Source: Eledone cirrhosa (lineage: Eukaryota). Taken from it: DNA of 64,000 bases. Shown here piece after piece: positions 1,291 through 64,000 of this stretch. The notes under the pieces were generated by a model. It saw nothing but the letters and a program-made list of their open reading frames with translations. It ran no database searches and was not told where the DNA came from. Each line of letters opens with the position of its first letter. Within the stretch, counting starts at the first letter, position 1. The stretch spans positions 103,788,001 to 103,852,000 of the forward strand of contig OZ024741.1 of NCBI GenBank assembly GCA_964016885.1, read 5' to 3'. A program made the position numbers and the translations under genes.

Positions 1291-1578
1291 TTCTTTATTA
1301 GCCACAAGGGCGCAACAAGAAAAGTGGACAATACAAAGACATGCCGGGGGTTTTACATACAGTCGTGTAAAAAATATAAAAACAAACAATAGATAGATAG
1401 ATAGATAGATAGATAGAAAATAGGTATGTGTAAGTGTATGTACTCAAATGAATGTGTATATCGGAAGCGCGGATAATCACACACATTGATAACGATACAT
1501 ATGTATGCGTGTGTGTGTGTATGTGTGTATGTATTTATGTATGTATATATATATATATATTGAATGCAGATTTGAAAA

Positions 1579-1614
<36 letters not shown>

Positions 1615-1626
1615 GGTACGGTCTGA

Positions 1627-1666
<40 letters not shown>

Positions 1667-1967
1667 TCCCTGCATAAATATTGAGTGGGTATGTCTGTAT
1701 GATTGTGTGAAAACGCGCGCGCATTTGCGTGCATTAGGGAGTGAGAGAAAGGAAGGGGAAGAAAGAGGGAAAGAGCGTGGGAGAGTGAGGGAGAAAGAAA
1801 GGAAGATAGTGTGAGGGGGAGGAGTAGAGATCATAAGCAATAGAAAAATAAATAACCAGACATAACAATATTTATTTAATAAACAATCCACATATTGGAG
1901 GTTTGAAAATTCTCGTCAAATAGGCACCACCATTATTACATACTCACGCGCATACTCACACACACAC

Positions 1968-2036
<69 letters not shown>

Positions 2037-2071
2037 CGGACATTAAATGATGATGATGATGATGATGATAC

Positions 2072-2243
<172 letters not shown>

Positions 2244-2776
2244 ATATATATATAGATACCATCATCATTTAATGTCCGTTTTCTCTGCTAGCGAGATTTG
2301 GACGGTTCCCCACAAACTGTGTCAATACTCAAGTGAACTTACTGGACTCTCAAATAGACCGAAGGGTTTGCATCTAACTTACACACGTTCTCGTGCTCTG
2401 TTGACTGCATTTTACCGTAGCACCAACACTGCGGAGGTTTTTGTATCTTTTACACAGCTTAAGGGTGTGCTCTGCCCTTTACTTGGCAGGTTATCTACGA
2501 CTGGATGACTAGCATATTAACAATCACTTCACAGAATTATCGTGTCGACCATCAATATTAAGGTTGTCAAATTTTTTTGACACAACTGAAGAGTACTACC
2601 GACCCTTTATTTGTCAAAATCTCTATGCCCTTGCTATCGCCAGTAACTTTACAAAGAGTACTGGCTGCATTTTCAGGTCCTTACTCTTTATAATATAACC
2701 ATACTCTACTACCCCAAGTATTGAGTACTCTGTTGAGTAATGGTCTAAATAATTTCAAACTGAAATCCATCCTGAA

Positions 2777-2809
<33 letters not shown>

Positions 2810-2877
2810 TGGGGTACGGTCTGAGTGTGTGTATATAAAATATTATATATATACACATACACACACATCATATGTGA

Positions 2878-2960
<83 letters not shown>

Positions 2961-2979
2961 CACATATATATATACATAT

Positions 2980-3086
<107 letters not shown>

Positions 3087-3214
3087 TATGTGTGGTGTGT
3101 GTGCAGTGTGTGTATATGTGTGTATGTAGGTATGTATGTGTATGTGCGTGTGTATAATGTCATTCTGGTCAGATATACGAAGTGTTTTTTTATATTTTCC
3201 TTCCTCGTAATGAA

Positions 3215-3560
3215 TTGATGCAGCATGGTCGAATGGTTAAGGACTTCGATTCGCAATCATAAGGTTCCGGGTCAATGCCAACTGCCAGGCAACTTGGACA
3301 GGTATCATTTGCAATAAATTCATGTCGACTCATATATATGAGTTGAATTAGATAGACGAAAAATGTTTGGAAGTCCATCAGGTGGACTGTACTTGTGATA
3401 TAACAGGTCAGCCTTGCCATACACTCTGACATGCTGAATCTCCCTGAGAATTATGTGAATGCTACATATGATCAACCACTTACTCATTAATTACATGTGT
3501 ATGCTGTTCTGTTGATCGAATAAATTGCAACTCTCATCGCTGAAACCGACGGAGGTGCAT
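3215..3560 (+). mobile_element. Decayed tRNA-headed SINE (second family)
   Basis: A/B-box-like head (catggtcgaatggttaagg...ggttccgggtcaatgcc); body 'gctgaatctccctgagaatta' recurs in reverse at about 5250-5530 and related sequence at about 7900-8010. Confidence 0.55.
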
Positions 3561-4100
3561 TGTACCCTAAACGAAGTGTCGAGAAAATATGTTACTATTT
3601 ATTTTTTCCCTCTTAAACCTTTTATTTTAAATTGTTTATATCTAACTAAAAACCTTCTATCATAATTTTAAGCAAAACCCGGCACCAGCTTAATACTGAG
3701 AAAGTTTGCGATTTTACTAAATCCCTCCAAATTCTTGATAATTTTCGAAATTATTTGAAAATTATAGAAAATACTGTCCTTCATTAGAGATATAGCTCCG
3801 AAATAGTTAAGTTTCGCTGTTGGGGTGTTGGACTCATGATCGAAAAAACGTGTGCTAAATTCTTCAACAAGACATTTCACATTGTCCTAGTCCCCTCAGC
3901 TAGAATGAAATGAGTTCCGTCAGCAACTGGAAGATAATACAACTACAGTAGAAGACACTTCCCGTAGGTATCACGCAGTGGGACAGAACTCGAAACCACG
4001 TTGTTGCTAAGCGAACTCCATAATCACATAAACATGCTTGTATGCATATATATTTGTATAAATACATGCATCCACACTCGCACGCACACATACACACACA

Positions 4101-4154
<54 letters not shown>

Positions 4155-4394
4155 CATGCAGGATATCTATAGATGGAAGGTCAAGGAAAACAATGCTCAA
4201 TCTATTGCAAGAGAGCTTATATAGAATAAAGTTTCATACACTTAATATGTATGCGCAACCTCTGGTTTCGGGGTCCAGTTATGTCTACAGCTGTATAGTG
4301 AGGGAGCGACTTCAAAACTGGCCTTAAATCAGGAGTTTAGACAAAAATGCGAAAAAGGAAACGTAGATATGTTTCTATATCTATACGCGCTAAA

Positions 4395-13205: not shown

Positions 13206-13730
13206 CTAGCAGAAAACCGCCCACCGGGTGGTTTTCTGCTAGTCTATATATATAAAACTGAGGTTGTCTGTCTGTCTGTCTGTCTGTCTACTAAAACGGT
13301 CGGCACACATCTCCTCTTAAACCGTACGTTCAAATTTCGGTGAAATTGCTACACTTACAGATGAAGGTCCGGCAGAAACATCGGTCAAAAGATTTTTCAA
13401 ATCGACCCACGCCAAGTGCAAAAATCGAATTTGTAATGTATTGATTTTTCAGTTCAAATGTATAAATAGAGATGAGAGACGAGTTATTTCCCTTTTATGG
13501 CGTCATTTGTTTATCTTTTTACGTTACGAATAAACGTGCAAAGGTACAAAAATACGCGAACAGTTTTCGGGTCAGCAAAATTTTAACCTGCAAAATTCAT
13601 GAGTTCGAAGTTTCAACATTAAGCTTCCATTTTGCTTCATTTCCATTAAAAAGTCTTTTAAAACAATATTTCAGCGCATCAGCCTCGCCATCACCCGAGG
13701 CAACGCTGCGAGTGTGCTGGCTTGCCTCAA
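13206..13730 (+). mobile_element. Non-autonomous Helitron-like element preceded by a CTAG-bounded hairpin
   Basis: Starts TCTATATATATAAAA..(TGTC)n at 13243, directly after hairpin ctagcagaaaacc..ggttttctgctag; decayed 3' motif cccgaggcaacgc near 13700. Confidence 0.5.
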
Positions 13731-14147
13731 AATTAGAGAGGTTGCCCAGTACTCGCGACGTTATTGTCTTTTGCTCTGGTGTTGGCTCCGTTGTTCACAC
13801 CTCCCTTTACATTTTCTTTAATATTGTAGTTTATGTATATATTTAAAATATATTTGTTATGTTATTCTACTGTAGATATATTTATATGCTGTTTATACCC
13901 TCAAAAATCTATGAAACTACATACATGTTACAACTCTCTCTATATATATATCACACAGACACACATATACATATACATCTCAAGAGAGACAAGAGAGAAA
14001 GGGAGATGTAGAGAGAGAGAGAGTGAGATAGGTCGTTATACAGAGAGAGGTACAATCTAATCAGATAGAGAGTCAGAGAGAGAGAGAGAGGATGGCGACG
14101 AACGCTGGTTCACACACACGCGCGCGCGCGCAAACACATATATATAT

Positions 14148-27296: not shown

Positions 27297-44439
<17,143 letters not shown>

Positions 44440-45555: not shown

Positions 45556-46601
45556 CATAGACTTTACATGTGGCCGGTGTTCTGGTGCAATAAGTAGCAG
45601 CAAGTGCCCACAAAATACTAGCTCTTTCAATTGCGCAGAGGGTTCTATAGAAATAGTGGACAGCTTCCGTTACCTGGGCGATAAAATCAGCAGTGGGGGA
45701 GGGTGCTCTGAAAGTACTGTAGCTAGAGTCAGAACTGGTTGGAAAAAGTTCAGAGAGCTTATACCACTATTAGCTGCTAAAGGGTTCTCCCTAAAAATGA
45801 AAGGCAGGTTGTACGATGCCTGCATACGAACAGCAATGTTGCATGGTAGTGAGACCTGGGCATTGTGTGCAGAGGATATACGCAGACTAGAGAGGAACGA
45901 AGCTTGCATGCTCCGCTGGATGTGTAACAGTAATATACGTGAACGGCAAAGCATAAACGAACTAAGGAAAAAATTAGAGATAAGAGGGATCAGATGTTGT
46001 TTACTCGAGAGAAGGCTGCGTTGGTATGGACACGTGATGCGCATGAAAGTCGATAGCTGTATTACAAAGTGCAGGGCAATAAAGATAGACGGTAGCCACG
46101 GAATAGGCAGACCTAGAAAAACATGGGATGAGCTGATAAACTCCGACCTCACACACTTACACCTCTCCAAGACAATGTCACTGGACCGTGACCTTTGGCG
46201 GTACTCAGTAACAGAGAAGACCCGCCTTGCCAGTAGGCATCTCTAACAAACTACACCCCGTCCCGCCACCACCCCCACCCCATCCACACCACCCCGTTCT
46301 ATGTAAAGTTATGTTGGTGCCGCGCCATCCAGGCCGAAACAAATGAGATCGTGTAGGTGTCACGACAAAAAAACACACAGTCCACGCTGTAATGTGGCCG
46401 TGTAGGCAACACGGTAAAAACCTCCCAGACCCACACTGTAAATGTGGTTGGTGTTAGGAAGGGCATCCAACTGTAGAAAACCTGCCAGACAGTCCTATGC
46501 GAGCAAGACAATCACTCTTGCCTCAAGTGGGACTACCCCCGTCCAAACCCATGCAAGCGTGGAACACGGACGTTAAACGTTGATGATGATGATGATGATG
46601 A
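45556..46601 (+). mobile_element. RTE LINE, 5'-truncated
   Basis: DFTCGRC..FRYLG..LHGSETW..GRPRKTW, stop at 46246, 3' UTR, (GAT)n tail. Confidence 0.95.
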
Positions 46602-46750
46602 TATATATATATACATACATACATATATATACATATACACATATATATATACACATATACATCTATATATATACATATATATATATACATATATATACAT
46701 ATATATATATACATATATATATATATACATATATATACATATATATATAC

Positions 46751-46781
<31 letters not shown>

Positions 46782-46802
46782 CATATACATATATACATAT
46801 AC

Positions 46803-46834
<32 letters not shown>

Positions 46835-47040
46835 ACATATACATATATATATATATACATATACATATACATATATATACATATATATATATATATACAT
46901 ATATATATACATATATATATACATATACATATATATATACATATACATATACATATATATACATATATATATACATATACATATATATACATATATATAT
47001 ACATATACATATACATATATATACATATATATACATATAC

Positions 47041-47075
<35 letters not shown>

Positions 47076-47309
47076 CATATATATATACATATATATATAT
47101 ACATATATATATATACATATACATATACATATATATATATACATATACATATACAAATACATATATACATATACATATACAAATACATATATATATACAT
47201 ATACATATATATACATATATATACATATACATATATATACATATACATATATATATATATACATATACATATATATACATATACATATATATACATATAC
47301 ATATACATA

Positions 47310-47345
<36 letters not shown>

Positions 47346-47806
47346 CATATATATATACATATACATATACATATATATATACATACATATACATATATAC
47401 ATATATACATATACATATATACATATATATATAGATATATACATATACATATATACATATATATATAGATATATATATATATACATATACATATAGATAT
47501 ATAGATATATACATATACATATATACATATATATACATATACATATATATACATATACATATATATACATATATATACATATATATACATATATATACAT
47601 ATACATATATATACACATATATATATACATATATATACACATATATATATACATATATATATACATATATATACACATATATATATACATATATATACAC
47701 ATATATATATATACATATATATACACATATATATATATACATATATATATACATATATACATATACATATATATATACATATATATATACATATATACAT
47801 ATATAC

Positions 47807-47869
<63 letters not shown>

Positions 47870-47974
47870 TATATACATATACATATATATACATATATAT
47901 ACATATATATATACATATATATATATACATATATATATACATATATATATACATATATATATATACATATATAT

Positions 47975-48013
<39 letters not shown>

Positions 48014-48316
48014 TATATACATATATATATATACATATATATATACATATATATATATACATATATATATACATATATATATACATATATATATATACAT
48101 ATATATATACATATATATATATATACATATATATATACATATATATATACATATATATATATACATATATATATACATATATATATACATATATATATAC
48201 ATATATATGTATACATATATACATATATATATATATACATATACATATATATATATACATATACATATATACATATATATATATATACATATATATACAT
48301 ATACATATATATATAC

Positions 48317-48347
<31 letters not shown>

Positions 48348-48370
48348 CATATACATATATATACATATAC

Positions 48371-48404
<34 letters not shown>

Positions 48405-48455
48405 ATACATATATATATATATACATATATATACATATATACATATACATATACC

Positions 48456-48506
<51 letters not shown>

Positions 48507-48530
48507 AAACATATACATATATATATATAC

Positions 48531-48565
<35 letters not shown>

Positions 48566-48713
48566 CATATATATATAGATATATATATATATATATATAT
48601 ACATATATATATAGATATATATATATATATATACATATATATATAGATATATATATATACATATATATATAGATATATATATATATATATATATACATAT
48701 ATATATACATATA

Positions 48714-48744
<31 letters not shown>

Positions 48745-48879
48745 ACATATACATATATATACATATATATACATATACATATATATACATATATATATAT
48801 ACATATATATATACATATATATATATATACATATATATACATATATATACATATATATATATATACATATGTATATACA

Positions 48880-48945
<66 letters not shown>

Positions 48946-48974
48946 CATATATATACATATACATATGTATATAC

Positions 48975-49009
<35 letters not shown>

Positions 49010-49020
49010 CATATATATAC

Positions 49021-49103
<83 letters not shown>

Positions 49104-49381
49104 CATATATATATACATATATATACATATATACATATATATACATACATATACATACATATATATATACATATATATATACATATATATATACATATAT
49201 ATATATATACATATATATATACATATATATACATATATATATACATATATATATACATATATATACATATATATATACATATACATATATATATACATAT
49301 ATATATACATATACATATATATATACATATATATACATATATATATATACATATATATATACATATATATATACATATACA

Positions 49382-49417
<36 letters not shown>

Positions 49418-49437
49418 CATATATATATACATATACA

Positions 49438-49473
<36 letters not shown>

Positions 49474-49600
49474 CATATATATATACATATACATATATAT
49501 ATATATATACATATATATATACATATACATATATATATATATATACATATATATATACATATATATATACATATATATATACATATATATATATACATAT
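46602..49600. repeat. About 3-kb compound (AT)n/(ATAC)n microsatellite
   Basis: Direct inspection. Confidence 0.95.
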
Positions 49601-50208
49601 GGTGGCTGCCAACTCGTTTTCGAGTACGGCCACTACTTTATATCCATGTAGGAGAACCCCTACCGATGCGCTGAACGAGTGTGACTTTTTAGTCCAGCCA
49701 GCGACTTGAAAACTCTGGTACAAACACTACACTTGTGACAATTATTGACACATAGTGCTTTACCTTTGGTACCATGTGACGACAAGTGCAGAGAGATCTC
49801 CAGATACAAAGCAATGCCTGTGCCATGAAGCTTTTATAGTGAGCAAAGGCACTGCACAAAGCCAGTCCCACTCTCTTAACCAAGATGATATTTACCAAAA
49901 AGAAGAACAAGTCAACATCATTGGATACCATCAGGGTTGCAGGTGTTATATCAGAGTTTTCCTTCTCCTAGAATTCTGCCTTGACAAAGGCTAAGGGGTC
50001 ATCTCTCCCAGTGATTTTGGATGGCCATTGACTCTTAAGAGCTCCTTTGCCCTTTGACAGGTTTTGTTTTAGTCCTGCAGGATGTCCAAAGTCACCCTCC
50101 TCACCAAGAAACCTTGGTGGGGTTGCCAGTTTAGTCGCCAACGACCCGACCATGAGACAGGTTGTACTGGGATACATGTTACCAATAGCACCAAGTGGTG
50201 ACCTGACA
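49601..50208 (-). mobile_element. Short bipartite RTE-derived non-autonomous element (5' UTR plus C2H2-encoding 3' end)
   Basis: RTE-type 5' UTR motif ctaggagaaggaaaactctga; 3' part reads [23 protein letters not shown] (49731-49660). Confidence 0.65.
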
Positions 50209-50232
50209 TAATATATATATATATACATATAC

Positions 50233-50279
<47 letters not shown>

Positions 50280-50668
50280 CATATATATATACATATATAT
50301 ATACATATATATATATATACATATATATATACATATATATATACATATATATATATACATATATATATATATACATATATATATACATATATATATATAT
50401 ACATATATATATACATATATATATACATATATATATATATACATATATATATACATATATATACATATATATATACATATATATACATATATATATACAT
50501 ATATATATACATATATATATATATACATATATATATATACATATATATATATATACATATATATATACATATATATATACATATATATATACATATATAT
50601 ATACATATATATATACATATATATATATACATATATATATACATATATATATACATATATATATATAC

Positions 50669-50699
<31 letters not shown>

Positions 50700-50912
50700 C
50701 ATATATACATATATATATATATACATATATATACATATACATATATACATATATATATACATATATATATATATATACATATATATATACATATATACAT
50801 ATATATATATATACATATATATACATATACATATATACATATATATATACATATACATATATATATATATATACATATATATATACATATATATATACAT
50901 ATATATATATAC

Positions 50913-50966
<54 letters not shown>

Positions 50967-51160
50967 ATACATATACATACACATATATATATACATATAC
51001 ATATATATATACATATACATATATATATATATATATACATACATATATATATATACATATACACATATATATATATATATATATACATCTATATATATAC
51101 ATATATATACATATATATACATATATATATATACATATATATATATATACATATATATAC

Positions 51161-51207
<47 letters not shown>

Positions 51208-51228
51208 CATATACATATATACATATAC

Positions 51229-51260
<32 letters not shown>

Positions 51261-51311
51261 ATACATATACATATATATATACATATACATATATATATAT
51301 ATACATATACA

Positions 51312-51347
<36 letters not shown>

Positions 51348-51705
51348 CATATATATATACATATACATATATATATACATATACATATACATATATATAT
51401 ACATATACATATATATACATATATATATACATATACATATACATATATATACATATATATACATATACATATATATATATACATATATATATATACATAT
51501 ATATATACATATATATATATACATATATATATATACATATACATATACATATATATATATACATATACATGATACAAATACATATATACATATACATATA
51601 CAAATACATATATATATACATATACATATATATACATATACATATATATACATATACATATATATATATATACATATACATATATATACATATACATATA
51701 TATAC

Positions 51706-51746
<41 letters not shown>

Positions 51747-52084
51747 TATATACATATACATATACATATACATATATATATATACATACATATACATATA
51801 TACATATATATATACATACATATACATATATACATATATATATAGATATATAGATATATACATATACATATATACATATACATATAGATATATAGATATA
51901 TACATATATATATAGATATATATATACATATACATATATATATACATATACATATACATATACATATATATATACATATACATATATATATACATATACA
52001 TATATATACATATACATATATATACATATACATATACACATATATATATACATATATATACACATATATATATACATACATATA

Positions 52085-52117
<33 letters not shown>

Positions 52118-52158
52118 ATATATACATATACATATACATATATATATACATATATATA

Positions 52159-52191
<33 letters not shown>

Positions 52192-52293
52192 ATATATATA
52201 CATATACATATATACATATATATATATATACATATACATATATATACATATACATATATATACATATATATATACATATACATATATATACAT

Positions 52294-52340
<47 letters not shown>

Positions 52341-52660
52341 TATATACATATATATATATACATATATATATACATATATATATACATATATATATACATA
52401 TATATATATACATATATATATACATATATATATACATATACATATATATAATACATATATATATACATATACATATATATATATACATATATATATACAT
52501 ACATATATATACATATATATACATATACATATATATATACATATACATATATATATATACATATATATATACATATATATATATATACATATACATATAC
52601 ATATATATATATATACATATACATATATATATATATACATATACATATATATACATATAC

Positions 52661-52734
<74 letters not shown>

Positions 52735-52970
52735 ACATATACATATATACATATACATATATATACATATATACATATACATATATATATATACATATAT
52801 ATATATACATATATATATACATATACATATATACATATACATATATATACATATATACATATACATATATATATATACATATATATATATACATATACAT
52901 ATATATATACATATATATATATACATATATATATACATATACATATATATACATATACATATATATATAC

Positions 52971-53016
<46 letters not shown>

Positions 53017-53052
53017 TATATACATATATATATAATATATATATATATATAC

Positions 53053-53103
<51 letters not shown>

Positions 53104-53362
53104 CATATATATATACATATACATATACATATATATACATATATATATACATATACATATATATACATATATATATACATATATAATATATATATATACA
53201 TATACATATATATACATATATATATACATATATATATACATATATATATATATACATATATATACATATATATATACATATATATATATACATATACTAT
53301 ATACATATATATATATACATATATATATATATACATATATATATATACATATATATATATAC

Positions 53363-53393
<31 letters not shown>

Positions 53394-53448
53394 CATATAT
53401 ATATACATATATATATATATACATATATATATATACATATATATATAC

Positions 53449-53479
<31 letters not shown>

Positions 53480-53492
53480 CATATATATATAC

Positions 53493-53523
<31 letters not shown>

Positions 53524-53536
53524 CATATATATATAC

Positions 53537-53567
<31 letters not shown>

Positions 53568-53806
53568 CATATATATATACATATATATATATATACATAT
53601 ATATATATACATATATATATATATACATATATATATACATATATATATATATACATATATATATATACATATATATATATATACATATATATATACATAT
53701 ATATATATATATACATATATATATACATATATATATATATACATATATATATACATATATATATACATATATATATATATACATATATATATACATATAT
53801 ATATAC

Positions 53807-53861
<55 letters not shown>

Positions 53862-54010
53862 CATATATATATACATATATATACACATATATATATACAT
53901 ATATATATACATATATATACATATATATATACATATATATAATATACATATATATATACATATATATACATATATATATACATATATATATACATATATA
54001 TATACATATA
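50209..54010. repeat. At least 3.8 kb of compound microsatellite running into the assembly gap
   Basis: Direct inspection. Confidence 0.95.
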
Positions 54011-54210: not shown

Positions 54211-54221
54211 TTCTATAAATT

Positions 54222-54300
<79 letters not shown>

Positions 54301-54352
54301 TTATATATATATATATAATATAAGATCAAAAGATGGTTATAAGAGTTCCAAG

Positions 54353-54423
54353 TATTTTATTATGCGCATTTCAAAAACAAATATCATCCTGGGATGATAT
54401 CTGCGTTTTCATCAGATAAAATA
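54353..54423 (-). ncRNA. Type I hammerhead ribozyme motif, intact core
   Basis: tattttat CTGATGA aaacgcagatatcatc-ccag-gatgatatttgttttt GAAA tgcgca TA ataaaata: 8-bp stem I, long stem II, palindromic stem III, AUA site. Confidence 0.8.
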
Positions 54424-54790
54424 GGGATACATGATATGAAGCTTAAAAAACACTTGTGAATAGTGAAGTTTTAAATCAACATAAGTTTGAAATGAGCATA
54501 ATAAAATACTTGGAACTCTTTTAACCATCTTTTGATCTTATATTATTTATACTCCAGTCCTACAAACTGTAGAGTGCTACTTATCCGATATTTGCATTGC
54601 TTTATTGTGCTACAATAAAACTCACCTCCTACATATATATATATATATATATATATAGGAACGAGTAGGACCCCGACGGCTGAGCTCAGCCATCGGGGTC
54701 CTACTCGTTCCTATTACCCACTCTACTACCCTAAGTATTGAGTACTTTGGTGCGTTATGGTCCACCTGGTTCCTTACCACATTTCCTTCG

Positions 54791-54855
<65 letters not shown>

Positions 54856-55104
54856 TGTAATAAACAACATAAGGCAATTATTCCATTTACCAGTGGTTTC
54901 TTAAAAGCAAAAAATTTTGCTTTCAATCATCAGAAAGAAAAAATAGTAATAATAATAAATTTGAAGACTAAAATCCAAAGAGGGCTCAATAAGGATAAAG
55001 ATATATATATATATATATATAATACAATATGTAGAAAAGATAACACACTAGAGAGAGAGAGATAATGCGCCATCAGTCAAACAGGGAAAAACCACCAGTG
55101 TATG

Positions 55105-55529
55105 GCAGAGTAGACACACAATAATTAAAAGTATAAATTAAAGTGTAAATACATACCTCGATAACTATCTAACACACATGTACAAATCGAAAAAGATCTG
55201 TTTCGCCAAGTTCTGTGGTTGAGCACACCTCTCTGAGTGGTTTGGGCTGCCCTTTCTAGCAGCTCATCCCTTAGAAGCCACTGGTTACTGCCCTAGGCAC
55301 GCTGTGAATTCTCTCTCCCACGTGTGGCTGGACGGTCGCTTTAGATTCTCTTAGAGTTGTCTGAAATGTATAGCCTTACACACGCTGATGAACCATGGGC
55401 TAATCATTTCTGTCAACAACTTATTTGGCGAAACAGATCTTTTTGGATTTGTACGTGTGTGTTAGATAGTTATCGAGGTACGTATTTACACTTTAATTTA
55501 TACTTTTAATTATTGTGTGTCTACTCTGC
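55105..55529. repeat. Fold-back element, arms 55105-55209 and 55425-55529
   Basis: About 105-bp inverted arms; the right arm overlaps the hammerhead. Confidence 0.85.
55378..55460 (+). ncRNA. Type I hammerhead ribozyme, intact core with stable stem III
   Basis: acacacg CTGATGA a CCA..TGG c GAAA cagatc-tttttg-gatttg TA cgtgtgt; predicted GUA cleavage after 55453. Confidence 0.85.
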
Positions 55530-55649
55530 TTTCCATGGGCTAATTATCTTTTCTACATATTGTATTATAAAGAGCTCGGGATTCCTTCTCCTTTGAGCAC
55601 ATTACTGACAGGGAATAGCGAGAGTCTATGGCTCCGTTAATTTATCATG

Positions 55650-55681
<32 letters not shown>

Positions 55682-56224
55682 AAAAGGTAAACAGAAATAA
55701 CAACACAATCGGTACAGTATATGGAAGGAATATATTTATTTAACGCTAGTCCTCCATCAGAAGAAGGAATGAGTCATTAGAAAGAATGAAAGGATGAGCA
55801 GAGCAGAATCGGAAAAAAAATGTTTTTAGAAAAAAATAACAGGCTCATTCATGTTGCCATCTCTTGGAAACTGTTATATATCATTTCATTTCATTTCATT
55901 TTACGTCCGCTTTTTCCCTGCTTGCAAGGGTGGGATGGAAACTGATGGTGGCTTGATTTCTACAGCTGGATGCCCTTCCTAACACCAACCTCATTTACAG
56001 TGAGTGCTGGGTGCTTTTTTGCCGTGGTACCTCCACGACCACTTTGCAGTGGAATGATATGGACCCCAGTTCCTATCATCTCATTTCTACAGCTGAGTAA
56101 ACTGGAGCAATGTGAAATAAAGTGTCTTGCTCAAGGAAGCAACACATCACCCGGTCTGAGAATTGAACTCACAACCTTTCGATTGCAAGGCCAATGCTCT
56201 AACTACTAAGCCATGTACCTCCAT

Positions 56225-56227
<3 letters not shown>

Positions 56228-56283
<56 letters not shown>

Positions 56284-56326
56284 GTATATATATGTATATA
56301 TATATATATGTATATGTATATATATG

Positions 56327-56375
<49 letters not shown>

Positions 56376-56476
56376 GTATATGTATATATATATGTATATG
56401 TATATATATATGTATATATATATATATGTATATGTGTATATATATATGTATATGTATATGTATATGTATATATATG

Positions 56477-56548
<72 letters not shown>

Positions 56549-56602
56549 TATGTATATGTATATATATATGTATATGTATATATATATATATGTATATGTA
56601 TG

Positions 56603-56657
<55 letters not shown>
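56228..56657. repeat. (AT)n/(ATGT)n microsatellite
   Basis: Direct inspection. Confidence 0.95.
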
Positions 56658-56661
<4 letters not shown>

Positions 56662-56849
56662 TTTTTTTTGCTCTACGGTTCTTATATATTTGATATATAT
56701 ATTTATCCTTATCGAGCCCTCTTTGGATTTTAGTCTTCAAATTTTTATTATTACTATATATATATATATACATATATATAAGCATGAACCTAATACCTAA
56801 CTCCTTTCGCAACTCCTTGTTGTTATTACTGGAATAGCTGGTGGGAAAT

Positions 56850-58393
56850 TTATTATACAAAATATATAAATAAATTTACAGTAGAATTACATAACAAATA
56901 TGTTTTAAATATATACATAAATAACATTACAAATGCTTAGATAACATTATAAATTGCTCGCGATTCTTTCAGAAGGATATAGTCTTTTAATGTTGCAATT
57001 AAAGAAAATGTAAAGGGAGGGGGTGAACAACCGAGTCAACACCAGAGCAAAAGACAGTAGCGTCGCGAGGGGTACCGGGCAACCTCTCTAAAGATTTTTG
57101 AGGCAAGCCAGCACACTCGCAGCGTTGCCACGGGTGATGGCGGGGCTAATGCGCTGGAACAACCAAGTGCCCTCGCGAGATTCGCCAGTTACCTCTATTA
57201 GGCGAGCCGCCAGTGAAGAAAGGAACCTCAAAGTCACCGGCCCCCAAATGTCTCGAAAGCCAGAGGCTGAAAATGTAGCTAGCCGACAGATCACAGTATT
57301 TGAGGGTCCTACTCCGCTCGGCTGCGGAAGCTGTGGCTCTCGTCCTAACCGCAGCATCCAGGATGTGGGAAAGAGCAAACAGTGACGTCCCAGACAAGGC
57401 ACCTGCCTCTCGACCAGGGGCATAGGGTAAGGCCGTCAGGTCTTTTGCCGTCACTTATAGACAACCCAGATGGTTCTAAAATTGAGGGGATGTTCGCCCG
57501 GGCCAAAGCTCTCTTGAGAATGAGGTTTTGCTCCGTGTGACGCATGAAGCGGCCAGCATTCAGACGGCAAGAAAGACCGTGGAGTCGAGGAGCTTGCTGC
57601 ATCAGCACCTCAAACCCATGCAGACGTCAGCTCCCACTCTGAGGGCGATGGAGACACAAAGTTTGTCCAGGCAGAGTTGGCCACGGGTAGGGCATCAACC
57701 CAGTCACCTGAGTATTTGACGCTGGCAGATAGTAAGCGGCACCTTGCTAACTGATCTGACTGGACAAAGAGGGAGTTGAAGGTGGCCTTCGAACTTATGC
57801 TGTCCCAAGTTCTCTGACTTCGACTGTCCTCCACCTCAGGAAGAGACAAGCCCAACTCACTCCATTGCTGGAGAGCTTCACCCAACTCACTGTTGGAAGT
57901 AGTCCATGTTGGAGAGGAGAGGATACTGTTCACCAGGGTGGATGAAAGGAAGCAGGCGAGAGAGAGGGACGAACACTTACGAAGACCAAGACCCCCAAAT
58001 CGCTTGGGCAACGCAGCCTGATCGCGGGAGTCTGGAGAGAATCTAACATTGACCAGGCACTCGAATCTCTCGTAGATTAGGTCGTCGAAGCATTGGAGGC
58101 AGGACAGAAATCTGTGAGAGGGGCTGACCCTGAGCACATACAGAAGCTTAGGAATAGACAGCTAGTTCCTGAGTATGAAGAAACCTTGATGGGGTTCGAT
58201 AACTTCAATATTCTTCAGCAGCTGCTCAAGGCCAACCATCTTCGATTGGAAGATTGACTCGAAGGCAAGGTCTGTGATTGGCGCTCCTAAGGAGCACCAA
58301 GCCGAAGGGGGTGGGACCGCGATGGAGGAAAGGACTTTGCAAACAGGTCGATTAGCTGTTGGTGTTGAGAAGCCGGGTGGTTGAAAATCCATT
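56850..58393 (-). mobile_element. CRE-like RLE non-LTR retrotransposon, 5'-truncated, frameshifted
   Basis: LGAPI; LPKRFGGLG; GDWVDALPV; HGLSCR..AGRFMRH; LEPSGL..DGKRPDGLTLCPWSRG..LVWDVT; WLFQRISxAIxRGNAASVL. Confidence 0.85.
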
Positions 58394-58435
58394 TCCAATA
58401 TATATATATATATATTGTTTTTTTTAATTTGTTTT

Positions 58436-58928
58436 GAAAGATTTCTTATCTGAAAACGTGTGTTGAAACAGATATTGTTATACTTTGGAAGGGTCATGCT
58501 GCCAATAAAAAAACACATGCACCTGGTGATTTTTCACTTCAATTTATAAATTTCCAGTTGGTTCAATAATTGGATGGTTGTTTATATATTGTCAAAGCTC
58601 TTTTGTCACACATTCTGTGACCTCCTCAGTGACTGGGTTTTCATTTTGTGTCTCTCCTTTGTTCTGTCCTACACCATCTTGTTTTTGTGTAGATGGTGTA
58701 GGATAGAACAAAAGAGAGACATAAAATGAAAACTCAGTCACTGAGAAGGCCACAGAATGTGTGACGAAAGAGCTTTGACAATATATAAACAGCCATCCAG
58801 TTATCGAACCAACCAACCAACTGGAATTTGATAATAAATTCAAGGGAAAACCAACAGGTGCCTGTGTTTTTATTGGCAGCATGACCCTTCCAAAGTATAA
58901 CAATATCTGTTTCAGATAAGAAATCTTG
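58436..58928. repeat. About 490-bp fold-back element with a decayed hammerhead in each arm
   Basis: Arms 58436-58679 and 58691-58928; motifs at 58591-58633 (-) and 58737-58779 (+); related fold-back at 60100-60250. Confidence 0.8.
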
Positions 58929-59244
58929 CAAAATATACATATATATATATTTGTAAACGATATACAAGGATATATCAATTGAGAAACAAGCTAGTAGATT
59001 TAGATACTAGTTTAAAGCCATATACATAGAATACTTATAAGTATTCTATGTATGGCTTTAAATCTACTATGGAAGTATAGCCATCTAAGTACAGCATAAT
59101 CTTTATGTGAGTACAGCAATCTAACACATATGTGTATGACTTTAAATTTGTATTTAAATCTATATATCATTTGCTATGTATGTATATATGTAAAAAATGC
59201 TAGTTTGTTTTTTAATTGATATATCCTCACATATCACTTACAAA

Positions 59245-59460
59245 TCTATACTAATAAAGCTGACGGCTGTATGTATGTAACAAACTTTTCGCACCAAACA
59301 GCACCAAATTTGCACCATAGATGTAACTTTTTCCAAGTAAGAAAGTGAGGATATTTTTGTCTACTAAATTTTGATAAAAGATTAAAGATATTATTTAAAT
59401 ATTCACTTCTTTAAAATTTTCAAATGTCAACACTTGCGGTTATACGACATTCCTCTCTCT
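59245..59460 (+). mobile_element. Helitron-like 5' fragment
   Basis: A|TCTATACTAATAAAG..(tgta)n..caccaaatttgcac; no 3' end seen. Confidence 0.4.
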
Positions 59461-59717
59461 TTCTTAGTCTGTCTTTTTAGATAGATACATAGCTATAACG
59501 TCGCGCCCTTACAATATGTCTCTGTATGTCTGGCTGTCTGCATTATGAAAACCATTCTGTACATTGACTTCGTTATCTGCGTGTGTGTGTATATATGTAT
59601 ATATATAGTGTGTATATATATATGTGTGTGTATATATATATATGTATGTATATATACGTATAAAGGAATGCTGTAATAAAATGTACAAATCAAACTGTCT
59701 CTTATTTATGATACTAA

Positions 59718-59790
<73 letters not shown>

Positions 59791-59818
59791 ATCAAAAGAT
59801 GGTTAAAAGAGTTCCAAG

Positions 59819-59889
59819 TATTTTATTATGCGCATTTCAAAAAAAAATATCATCATGAGATGATATCTGCGTTTTCATCGGATAAAATA
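59819..59889 (-). ncRNA. Hammerhead motif, second copy of the 54353 family (core CCGATGA)
   Basis: Within direct duplicate 59788-60085 of 54320-54655; U4C change in the core. Confidence 0.6.
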
Positions 59890-60734
59890 GGGATACATGA
59901 TATGAAGCTTAAAAAACATTTGTGAATAGTGAAGTTTTAAATCAACATATGTTTTTGAAATGTGCATAATAAAATACTTTGAACTCTTTTAACCATCTTT
60001 TGATCTTACCTACAAACTGTAGAGTGCTACTTATCCGATATTTGCATTGCTTTATTGTGCTACAATAAAACTCACCTCCTATATATATATATATATATAT
60101 ATTGTTATACTTTGGGAGAGTCATGTTGCCAATAAGAAACACATGCACCAGTTGCTTTCACTCCAATTTATTATAAATTAAATTGGAGTGAAAGCAACTG
60201 GTGCGTGTGTTTCTTATTGGCAACATGCCCCTCCCAAAGTATAACAATATCGGTTTCAACACACGTTTTCAGATAAAGAATCTTGCTAAACAAATTCAGA
60301 AACGAAATATATATATATATATATATATATATAGTATTAATTCCAATATTTTTAATGCTTACACTATTTTTAATACTTACATTATTTCTCCACACACAGA
60401 CTATAACAATCATATAAAGAATTCGTCACCAGATCAACCAACCTAACACTCTCGATTACCTGCTTAAGTGCTTCTACTACACGTAACTCTCTGCCACACT
60501 ATATAAACAAGACGCACGTGCTTGCCACACATATAACCTTTGCACTATATAACCGCTTAATTTCATGTATTTTTACCTGTATTTTTGATTGTATCTTTTA
60601 ATACGAATGTAATCTCTAAGTGTGTACTGCCACTCTAAATGCTGTAATGAATGTTGACCCACAATATTTGCATATGTATCTGTATGTCTCTTGGGTGAAA
60701 AGGAGGTCATATAAGTGTTCATTCAATAATAAAT

Positions 60735-60781
60735 TGCTCCGAAGAATCCAAACCTCGGTTTGGAGGAAACAGTTGTAAGCA
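60735..60781 (+). ncRNA. Hammerhead motif with one core change (CCGAAGA)
   Basis: tgct CCGAAGA a TCCAAAC-ctcg-GTTTGGA g GAAA cagttg TA agca. Confidence 0.6.
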
Positions 60782-60959
60782 TAAAAATGTTTTGAACAGT
60801 TCTTTGATTCTTATAATTCATATATATATATATATATATAGTGTTAATATCATAAATAAGAGACAGTTTAATTTGTGTATATATATATAGTGTTAGTATC
60901 ATAAATAAGAGACAGTTTAATTTGTACATTTTTATTACAGCATTCCTTTATACGTATAT

Positions 60960-60974
<15 letters not shown>

Positions 60975-60999
<25 letters not shown>

Positions 61000-61250
61000 T
61001 ATATATATATATATATATACACTATATATATATATATATATATACACTATATATATATATATATATATACACTATATATATATATATATATACACTATAT
61101 ATATATATATACACTATATATATATATATATATACACTATATATATATATATATATATACACTATATATATATATATATATACACTATATATATATATAT
61201 ATATACACTATATATATATATATATATATACACACACTATATATACATAT
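60975..61250. repeat. ACACT(AT)n tandem array
   Basis: About a dozen units of tacactatatatatatata. Confidence 0.85.
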
Positions 61251-61454
61251 ATACACACACACAGATAACAAAGTCAATGAACAGAATGTAATAAAATGTA
61301 CAAATTAAAGTGTCTCTTATTTATAATACTAACACTATATATATATATATATATATATATAATGAAGGAAATGTGGTAAGGAACCAGGTGGACCATAACG
61401 CACCAAAGTACTCAATACTTAGGGTAGTAGAGTGGGTAATAGGAACAAGTAGGA

Positions 61455-61547
61455 CCCCGACGGCTGAGCTCAAGCCGTTTCAACGGCTAATTCTGGACTT
61501 AATAAACATTTTTATCCTGGTATTTGAATAGCTGAGCTTCTCAGGGG
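61455..61547 (-). ncRNA. Decayed hammerhead motif with long stem III (GUC site)
   Basis: ccc CTGA-GA ..about 60 nt.. GAAA cggct-tgagctc-agccg TC gggg; same family at 44055-44270 (+) and 54655-54713. Confidence 0.5.
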
Positions 61548-62705
61548 CTAATTCCATATATGGTAAAAGTGATTGTCACAAGGATTGGTCAAAAGTTTGT
61601 TGTTGAGACATAATAATTCTATCATGGCAATTTGTGGAGGGAAGGGGTAGCTGAACCTGCCAGTAGAAGAAAGAGGGAGAGGGGGTGGAGGAAACCCAGT
61701 CGTGGTGCGTTGATAGTGCCAACTACAGCTGGGCATGAGGTCAAAGAAGATACTAGGGGGGGGGGGTAGTCGAAACAATAAGTAAAACAATATGGGGTAA
61801 ATATATAGAGAAATACCGAGAGTGTTAAAAAACAATTAAATATAAAAAAAAAAAAAAACAATTTCTGGTTACTATAACCTAAGGACAGCTATCAAGTCTC
61901 TCACTGGTACTGCTAGACTAAAGAAAGGTTTACTAGGTGGGACGGAATTATAATGAGAACCTTTTAAGAGGTATAAGTAAACAACCGAATATATCTTACG
62001 GTGACGGGTCAACAAGTGGGGGGCCAAAATACTAAAGAAACTACCACGAAATAATAATTCAGAGTCCTGAGGCCAGTACGAAATAAAGGTTTCTACCCCA
62101 GGCACAAGGCCAGCAACCACCCAGTGCAAAAAAAAAATAAACTAATACGAAATAATAATTCAGAATCCCAAAAAAGAAAACTAATACTATCTCTAAGGGT
62201 GCCGCCACGATACAAAAATTCTAGTGCAAACTACATAAATGCTCGTACGAAGTATATGTAAGATTTGATATGGAAAATTAATTCATTGTTTCAATTTTCA
62301 TTTTTATTGTTTATATATATATATATATGTTTCCATGTCTTTTTTTCTTTTCTTATATAAATAATAAAAATATTTACACGCACAAAACCCACATTGTACC
62401 GTCCTGTGCCGTCTGTAATGTTTTTCTTGATGTCAGCTCTTGTGGCCAATAAAGAAATCATTATTATTATTATTATTATTATTATTGGCATCCTACATAG
62501 TAAATCATATTATCGTGAGCTCCGCAAAGGTTTGTTATTTTCACTTGTTTAAAATTGCCATTTATGGAAAATCTTTATTGTTAACTGTATATAAGTGCAC
62601 ATACATTGTTTTCTGAAAAGGACACTCAAAAAGATTGGGGCCTTGTGCCCAAAATTTAAACTTTTATAATTATCAAACAAAAAAAAAAAATTTCTTTGAA
62701 AGATC

Positions 62706-64000
62706 ATGGCCGACTCACAGCTGAACCCAGTAGCTGAGAGCCTTCCTCACAAACTAAGACCTCACACCGACACCACCATTGTAAATATTACTACGTTTGC
62801 CAACACTAAAAATATAAGCAGTAGCAATATTTTAAATTTGTCTCAAGCAGACATTCATTTCCCGCCATTACCAATGACTGCAGGTGTCGAAGCCGCCACC
62901 CCACCACCACCACAGCGACAACAGAAACAAAAGAAAAAAATAAATTATCTCGTGATATCGAAACGAATTCAGCCAAAATGAACTCTTCCACGCCGAACAC
63001 CACTGACGCCACCACCACCACAACTGAAACTAAAATCAACAATAACAAAAATAACGATAACAACAACAGCAACAATGAGAATAAGAAAACCCTGTCTTTT
63101 GCCAGAGTAGCAAAAATGTGCGAAGCATTCCAGGTAACTCAGGAGGAATTAGAAGAAGCCAAAAAAATGGTAAAGAAAGATGGGTACAGGGTCAGCCCCC
63201 CCCCCCCCCCCCCTAATAAAATGGAGCATCAGCGCCTATGGACCGTGTCTTATTGGACGATTAACATAAAATCGCGCCGAGTGGAACGGGCATCCGAGTC
63301 CCAAATCCAAAAAGCTTTGGGACATGTGTGGGCAAAAAAAAACCACATCAGACGTGGGCAGAAATATGGAACCGTGGACGTGTTCTTTGAAACACCACAG
63401 GAGGCCAGAGAACACTCCATGGCCCCATTAAGAAGTGACGACTTCACACTCGTCCCGAGCTATTGTGGTCAGAGACTCGTGAAGATCAGAGTGACCCACA
63501 TTCCACCGGCCATCGAAATTCCCTGGCTAATGGCTGCCGTCCTCGCCGGCATCGAAGCCAACACCAAGATAATCGAAATAGCGAAAGAAAAGCAGGAGAC
63601 TGCTCCGGATCTGGGATGGACCTCCTGATCCAAGCATAAAAGCATTGAGGAGATCCCAGAGGTAATAGACCTCACTGACGGCAGCCACCTCACTGTAATC
63701 GTTGAGGGCAGAAGGCCGATGTGTGTCGTTTGTGGTGAAGGAACCCACCTAAGGGCTTTCTGCCCTCAGGCTAAAAGGTTGAGGCCACCTATCTTACCCA
63801 CCGCAGTGACTCAACCATCAACACCACCAGCAGCAGAAATGGCAGCAACAACAGAAGCAACTGTAACAGCAACAACCCCAGCAACAGTAGCAAAACCAAC
63901 ACCACTACCACCCAACGCGCCAGAACTAGCACCAGCACCTACACCATCCACCACGCCACAACCAAAACCAACGCCTGTGGAGGATTTTCCACTCCCCGAC
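62706..64000 (+). mobile_element. Tx1/L1-like LINE ORF1 (gag-like), disrupted, continues beyond the window
   Basis: SFARVA motif; RRM-like VDVFF..KIRVTHIP; after the TGA at 63626, VIVEGRRPM-CVVCGEGTHLRAFC (CX2CX4HX4C) and a Pro/Thr/Ala-rich tail; probable frameshift near 62935. Confidence 0.8.

What the first reader, a model, noticed from the sequence alone, without database searches (positions are those of the whole stretch)
54211..61560. 7-kb island of nested fold-back elements carrying at least seven hammerhead motifs of five families
Seen: motifs at 54353(-), 55378(+), 58591(-), 58737(+), 59819(-), 60735(+) and 61455(-), with unrelated stems between families, in short non-coding modules mostly bounded by (TA)n. 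Modules are duplicated directly (54320-54655 vs 59788-60085) or inverted (54655-54800 vs 61360-61470; 59555-59730 vs 60880-61290; 54950-55010 vs 56690-56755). Known: Penelope-like pseudo-LTRs and retrozymes carry hammerheads. Inference: this is a hotspot of non-autonomous ribozyme-bearing retroelements, possibly undescribed families that could yield small linear, circular or double-stranded RNAs.
Basis: partly seen in the sequence, partly recalled or inferred. Interest (0 to 1): 0.8.

Follow-up and report, generated by a model that had tools for sequence, protein, structure and literature searches.

The report
Pile-up of Penelope hammerhead retroelement ends
This stretch is a pile of leftover tail ends of very common Penelope-type jumping genes that landed in TA repeats; one genome holds at least 80,000 of their predicted self-cutting RNA motifs, and the way their mirror-image copies end suggests that both ends of a DNA break are likely copied into at once.

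Summary
The seven motifs are real and an eighth was missed (54933, minus strand), but only 3 of 8 keep the canonical core. Four of the five families (A, B, E: Hydra clade; D: Neptune/Nematis type) are not non-autonomous: they are 5'-truncated 3' ends of Penelope-like elements whose longer copies carry RT and GIY-YIG. Only family C is non-autonomous, a closed 540-nt retrozyme-like unit without an ORF. The 'island' is a modest excess (5 descriptor hits in 7.5 kb; up to 4 per 10 kb in 40 control stretches), because such motifs fill this genome: at least 83,000 exact pattern matches, roughly 200,000 extrapolated. Two things go beyond what I found in print. (1) In 98 of 100 classifiable inverted pairs from five families (and 5 of 5 in E) one arm ends at the far and the other at the near of two fixed end sites, which points to two cDNAs primed from both ends of one break. 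(2) Families B and E spread with fixed non-canonical cores. No RNA data were available. The scan noted a similar Penelope-mobilised unit in another genome, not this DNA.

The parts
54321..54631 (.). Family A copy 1: inverted pair of Hydra-clade PLE 3' ends; left arm (minus, near end site) carries an intact hammerhead (C3 at 54415, palindromic helix III); right arm (plus) carries the 83-89 nt tail
   Evidence: same subfamily runs into GIY-YIG frame in L017 and RT in L019
54655..54789 (.). Family B copy 1: fold-back joined at the helix III palindrome; lacks the 5' core, so no complete hammerhead
54852..54945 (-).
54946..55000 (-). Family G terminal fragment (PLE-like end with two end sites 86 nt apart; hammerhead-like motif lies upstream in longer copies, not here)
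55018..55649 (.). Family C: inverted pair of a non-autonomous 540-nt closed unit; hammerhead C3 at 55385(+), 8-bp helix I, 6-7-bp helix III; plus arm has an internal deletion
55875..56230 (.). Dispersed SINE-like repeat with a tRNA-like part (Rfam tRNA 26.3 bits, below gathering 29); not part of the PLE set
56667..56750 (+). Family G terminal fragment, second copy
56790..58390 (-). Broken non-LTR retrotransposon 3' part; CRE-like by recalled motifs, label not confirmed by any search
   Evidence: frames; searches gave no family name
58420..58935 (.). Family D: old inverted pair (arms 83% alike) of a Neptune/Nematis-type PLE 3' end; both hammerheads (58629 minus, 58741 plus) carry private core mutations
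58950..59245 (.). Unclassified fold-back repeat (H), no hammerhead found
59247..59720 (+). Repeat F, copy 1: dispersed non-coding repeat without hammerhead; Helitron-like start by recall, untested
59787..60081 (.). Family A copy 2: inverted pair; hammerhead (C3 at 59881, minus) damaged (U4C, helix II base)
60099..60305 (.). D-group terminal fold-back without hammerhead (one near end, one far end)
60340..60812 (+). Family E: 5'-truncated 3' UTR of a 4.2-kb Hydra-clade PLE; hammerhead C3 at 60739 with family-wide U4C core
60830..61335 (.). Repeat F, copy 2 (rearranged, with TA-rich arrays)
61364..62285 (-).

Best explanation
The region is a row of independent insertions, between TA microsatellites, of 5'-truncated and often mirror-image 3' ends of four protein-coding Penelope-like element families and one non-coding 540-nt unit that is likely mobilised by them, each end carrying a predicted hammerhead ribozyme. 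Shown: family identity, RT/GIY-YIG frames upstream in A, B, D and E, the closed ORF-less unit of C, copy numbers, two fixed 3' end sites per family (55-166 nt apart), and the one-far/one-near pairing of inverted arms. Inferred: the element's endonuclease cuts both strands of a (TA)n tract, a dimeric RT primes one cDNA from each DNA end, one at each of the two start sites, and the two prematurely ended cDNAs join head to head, often at a short palindrome, giving a fold-back with a one-sided tail. Each insertion leaves (TA)n on both sides, so targets persist and insertions accumulate locally. cDNA starts 45-270 nt downstream of the predicted cleavage site and runs through it, so the template is uncleaved or re-ligated RNA; cleavage is probably not needed for insertion, which would let B and E spread with non-canonical cores. 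Most copies here are probably inert fossils.
For: ORF linkage: E full length, pLTRs 4.17-4.19 kb apart; A-group full length, 3,334 bp, 738-aa frame with an inverted copy at its 5' end (L228); B; D (RVT_1 E=7e-4, GIY-YIG E=1.4e-4, both just under cut-off). Hydra motifs RW(R/I), DKT, CxCx5C, YRDD, CxxC, CxH in A, B, E match section 11 and the supplement alignment of PMC8557442. C: 24 of 45 loci (43 distinct places) hold a contiguous copy longer than one unit, one head-to-tail dimer with two hammerheads 537 nt apart, longest frame 79 aa; the unit junction also stands in contigs of three runs of one other sample. Pairing: of 121 inverted pairs in A, B, C, D, G, 98 one-far/one-near, 1 far/far, 1 near/near, 21 with an arm ending elsewhere; p=8e-27 against 50%; E 5 of 5 clean pairs. 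In 45 of the 98 the near-site arm reaches further 5' than the far-site arm, which snap-back copying of one cDNA cannot give. PMC11167929 shows in vitro two start sites, cutting and extension of both strands, a predicted dimer and insertion by hammerhead-dead RNA. Helix II keeps its shape with compensating changes across A-group subfamilies (25 of 33 distinct sequences fold at z<-2).
Against: No RNA or cleavage data. Loci were best hits, first-listed pattern hits, bystanders and controls, not a random draw of pairs. 16 of the 35 B pairs are joined in one palindrome where arm limits are ambiguous. For circular C the 'reach' argument is weaker in a few pairs. The window's own D pair has both arms running into the tail (counted among the 21 unclassified). 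Pfam and PDB gave no hit for the Hydra-type frames; clade assignment rests on motifs read by eye, no tree. The partner that moves C was not found. Families G and I were not linked to an ORF.
Confidence: 0.85

Rival explanations
1. All modules are non-autonomous ribozyme retroelements (retrozyme-like) gathered in a special hotspot.
For: Family C fits; most copies of all families are short; the region has 5 descriptor hits against 0.96 expected (Poisson P=0.003).
Against: A, B, D, E continue into GIY-YIG/RT frames; controls reach 4 hits per 10 kb and P=0.003 predicts over a thousand such windows in 3 Gb.
Confidence: 0.07
2. The fold-backs arise by snap-back: one cDNA folds on itself and is copied back, stopping short of the tail.
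For: Explains a tail on one side only and junctions at palindromes; 31 of 98 pairs have equal reach and 22 have the far-site arm longer; arms often share subfamily variants.
Against: 45 of 98 pairs have the near-site arm reaching further 5' than the far-site arm; the near end is fixed to a few bases and is also used by the longer arm.
Confidence: 0.12
3. The modules are MITE-like DNA transposons or local duplications and the hammerhead look is a by-product of hairpins.
For: Terminal inverted arms, TA flanks, Rfam silent.
Against: Variable 5' truncation with fixed 3' ends, RT/GIY-YIG upstream, 63,713 and 15,976 exact pattern matches against 0 for reversed patterns, conserved cores around variable compensating stems.
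Confidence: 0.02

Closest known systems
Hydra clade of EN+ Penelope-like elements (Craig et al. 2021, PMC8557442), including Hydra-1_Obim
   Same: RT then GIY-YIG, RW(K/R) and DKT motifs, CxCx5C linker, CxxC and CxH in EN, (TA)n insertion, inverted truncated copies, tail on one end, hammerhead near the 3' end.
   Different: A, B, E are other families than Hydra-1_Obim (different hammerhead sequence); longer (3.3-4.2 kb against mostly under 3 kb); tails of 76-166 nt against 30-40; the paper reports canonical hammerheads throughout Hydra, whereas B and E have fixed non-canonical cores; copy numbers in the tens of thousands for the A group.
Minimal hammerheads of metazoan PLEs (Cervera and de la Pena 2014, PMC4209133)
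   Same: Type I, short palindromic helix III (A, D, E, I), extra base after A9 (D).
   Different: A10.1-U11.1 instead of G-C (A, ancestral C); long stable helix III in B and C, which that paper links to fungal and protist PLEs; about 9,000 motifs was its largest count (X. tropicalis).
Animal non-LTR retrozymes (PMC7229834; preprint 10.64898/2026.07.22.740005)
   Same: Family C: non-coding closed unit with one type I hammerhead per unit, head-to-tail dimer, proposed PLE origin.
   Different: 540 nt; mostly dispersed 0.5-1.5-mers with PLE-type inverted arms and tails instead of long arrays; circular RNA not shown.
Poseidon element PAc studied in vitro (Frangieh et al. 2024, PMC11167929)
   Same: Two RT start sites bounding the tail, AT-rich targets, both strands cut and extended, hammerhead dispensable.
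   Different: The parts I read report no start-site difference between strands and no rule for inverted pairs; here the two ends of an insertion use different sites in 98 of 100 pairs, and TA-like bases adjoin the end sites.

Membership tests
EN+ Penelope-like elements (A, B, D, E) | RT followed by GIY-YIG in one frame upstream of the module | tested here: met
   relatives carry PF26215, one PF00078
EN+ Penelope-like elements (A, B, D, E) | pLTR from partial tandem; inverted 5'-truncated copy; tail | tested here: met
   L121, L122 (E), L228 (A group), L229 (D group), L123 (B, inverted)
Hydra clade (A, B, E) | RWK-like and DKT motifs, CxCx5C linker, CxxC/CxH, no CCHH | tested here: met
   read by eye (RWR/RWI in place of RWK)
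Hydra clade (A, B, E) | (TA)n insertion | tested here: met
   alignments end in (TA)n
Hydra clade (A, B, E) | Canonical hammerhead | tested here: inconclusive
   met in A; B has CUGAGAAG in 97 of 100 listed of 839 matches, none canonical; E has U4C, no canonical U4 in 100 listed of 306. Described as common to the clade, not as its definition.
Hydra clade (A, B, E) | RT phylogeny | not tested
   reference proteins were only seen in the paper's supplement
Neptune or Nematis clade (D) | CX2-5CxxC linker and CCHH-type EN | tested here: met
   L229 frame; which of the two clades was not resolved
Non-LTR retrozyme (C) | Non-coding unit with type I hammerhead in consecutive tandem units | tested here: met
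   540-nt unit, longest frame 79 aa, dimer in L196; only 1 such dimer among 85 pattern matches
Non-LTR retrozyme (C) | Self-cleavage and circular RNA | not testable with these tools
   no RNA run listed
Non-LTR retrozyme (A, B, D, E) | No coding capacity in the family | tested here: not met

The most novel reading that the evidence does not exclude
This genome carries on the order of 200,000 hammerhead motifs, the densest ribozyme load I could find reported for an animal, and its Penelope-like elements insert by double-ended priming: a dimeric RT assigns one of its two RNA start sites to each end of a double-strand break, which explains the long-puzzling inverted copies with one-sided tails; a 540-nt circular-RNA retrozyme rides the same machinery, and two successful families have dispensed with (or re-wired) the hammerhead core.
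Probability: 0.55. Interest if true: 0.68.

Novelty: new member of a known kind. Interest (0 to 1): 0.5.

Why it matters
The locus itself is repeat debris, but it opens three testable points. The one-far/one-near rule ties the two in vitro start sites of Penelope RT to a specific integration geometry and rules out simple snap-back for many copies. At least 83,000 core-matching motifs (about 28 per Mb; axolotl has 126,247 in 28 Gb) would put predicted self-cleaving RNAs into many introns and are invisible to Rfam. Families B and E are natural tests of whether the hammerhead matters for Penelope-like element spread.

Tried and rejected
Rfam at gathering and at E<=10: no hammerhead model hit, only hairpin look-alikes. 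Pfam on Hydra-type frames and on the LINE fragment: nothing useful; PDB by sequence: nothing; ESM Atlas for the LINE fragment: unnamed eukaryotic clusters only. RNA evidence: no RNA holder listed for the C unit; the three runs laid are contigs of unknown kind from one sample and say nothing on expression. Search for C's partner by similarity to other fetched loci: only C-like relatives. Family I: six loci, no clear link to an ORF. A library-based enrichment figure (10 insertions in 7.4 kb against 34 in 400 kb) was set aside because the library came from this region; the descriptor count was used instead. A reading of C with a 7-nt insertion after A9 was dropped: a sister subfamily pairs A10.1-U11.1 directly. 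Repeat F as a PLE end: rejected. In one search family E seemed to break the pairing rule (4 of 7 pairs same-ended) because my reference stopped at the near site; E was left out and redone. Literature searches that found no report of these points: hammerheads in octopus/cephalopod; twin priming in Penelope; retrozymes in molluscs; subscription journals, Repbase/Dfam and preprint supplements were not seen, so families may already be catalogued there.
Full report
Setting. The window is G000:C2:103,788,001-103,852,000 in a 3.0-Gb animal assembly. The taxon is not given by any tool; the repeat landscape looks cephalopod to me (inference from recall). The finding starts right after a 200-base gap and a 7-kb TA-rich array.

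Observation. A descriptor scan and inspection recover all seven motifs and an eighth at 54933(-). The descriptor gave 5 hits in 7.5 kb against a mean of 0.5 in 20 shuffles; it misses the two D copies and B because of core changes. Only 54415, 54933 and 55385 keep CUGAnGA/GAAA/UH. Rfam has no hit. The stated duplications are present but are separate insertions: genomic copies of A match at 99-100%, the local second copy at 94%.

Families. Searches with each module returned 1,454-4,157 first-look candidates, 40 scored each. B and E copies share sequence more than 1.5 kb upstream, with variable 5' truncation, ending in GIY-YIG frames. Two E loci have pLTRs about 4.2 kb apart around RT frames. The window's A subfamily runs into a GIY-YIG frame (L017) and RT (L019); a sister subfamily is full length in L228 (3,334 bp, 738-aa frame). 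D runs into a CCHH-type EN (L078, L092), and the D group shows RT and EN in L229. A, B and E show the Hydra-clade motifs of PMC8557442 (section 11 and supplement passages seen). D is Neptune or Nematis type. No tree was built.

Family C. Its 3' tail runs back into its own start, closing a 540-nt unit with no frame over 79 aa. 24 of 45 loci (two pairs are the same place) hold more than one unit; L196 has two hammerheads 537 nt apart, the only such dimer among 85 pattern matches. It meets the DNA-level retrozyme definition of the 2026 preprint (parts 1-2 of 5 read) and resembles PMC7229834 (passages). It inserts exactly like the PLEs, which supports mobilisation in trans (inferred). A control stretch, L171, holds another such family, three hammerheads 528 nt apart.

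Is it an island? In 40 stretches of 10 kb chosen at round positions on 17 large contigs the descriptor found 51 hits, 17 after shuffling, up to 4 per stretch. The region's 5 compare with 0.96 expected (P=0.003). Other families of my library occur near A, C, D and E copies at 0.14-0.23 per kb against 0.085 overall, and near B copies at 0.06-0.09: mild co-clustering at shared (TA)n targets. Whole-genome exact counts: A group 63,713, D group 15,976, I 3,619, C 85, each with 0 for the reversed pattern; the D and C patterns do not include the cleavage triplet. Extrapolation gives about 255,000; the controls held 12 A-group matches against 8.5 expected, so about 180,000 is as plausible. For scale: 126,247 type I motifs in axolotl (PMC7229834 passage), about 9,000 in X. 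tropicalis (PMC4209133, parts 1-2 of 4 read), 235 by Rfam in giant squid (PMC6962438 passage). A 2026 O. vulgaris repeat annotation lists Penelope-like families and does not mention ribozymes in its main text (PMC13282606 passages).

Core variants. B reads CUGAGAAG (G8A, or loss of N7 plus the extra base after A9) in 97 of the first 100 listed of 839 matches, none canonical. E reads CCGAAGA; none of 100 listed of 306 has U4, and full-length copies share it. Both families have copies 97-98% alike, so they spread recently. The C3-G8 pair is described as covarying, and U4C as much less active in vitro yet tolerated in a viroid (PMC3088659 passages). A-group helix II varies widely but keeps its fold (25 of 33 distinct sequences at z<-2), so the fold has been under selection in that group.

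How the fold-backs form. Each family has two fixed 3' ends: 83-89 nt apart in A, 76 in B, 84 in C, 55 in D, 86 in G, 166 in E. Of 121 head-to-head pairs in A, B, C, D, G, 98 have one arm at each site, 1 both far, 1 both near, 21 have an interrupted arm; E adds 5 of 5. In 45 of 98 the near-site arm reaches further 5', 31 equal, 22 shorter. A tail on one end only is known (PMC8557442, Fig. 2 legend). PMC11167929 (parts 1-2 of 4 read) shows two start sites, both strands cut and extended, a predicted dimer and hammerhead-independent insertion. The simplest joint reading, inferred, is two cDNAs primed from the two ends of one break, one per start site, joined at their truncated ends. I found no statement of this rule; coverage is limited to open literature.

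Verdict. The locus is a dense but not unique heap of PLE ends: new families of known kinds.

Noticed in passing
L171:6470-7990 (G000:C3, 310.006-310.008 Mb): A second retrozyme-like family: about 2.9 tandem 528-nt units, each with an intact hammerhead, an inverted piece at the 5' end and (TA)n on both sides.
   Followed up: partly
L186:5800-6230: Inverted pair of hammerheads with the same architecture as family C (long helix I and III) but different sequence; possible further non-autonomous family.
   Followed up: no
L009:1196-1375: Family G carries a hammerhead-like motif with CAGAAGA (U4A) in both arms; a third possible fixed core variant.
   Followed up: no
window 56790-58390 (-): Frameshifted non-LTR element end, CRE-like by recall, flanked by (TA)n; part of it recurs at window 13669-13822.
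   Followed up: partly
window 62825-64000 (+): Reading frames resembling a LINE ORF1 with a zinc knuckle (recalled, no family hit).
   Followed up: no
window 31631-39514 and 46601-54010: Two 7-8 kb TA-rich microsatellite arrays; the second ends at an assembly gap just before the finding.
   Followed up: no
window 25951 (+) and 28965 (-): Two more hammerhead-shaped motifs with canonical cores outside the finding.
   Followed up: no
window 59247-59720 and 60830-61335: Repeat F is itself often interrupted by an inverted piece of its own sequence at an internal TA tract in other loci (L219, L223-L227).
   Followed up: partly
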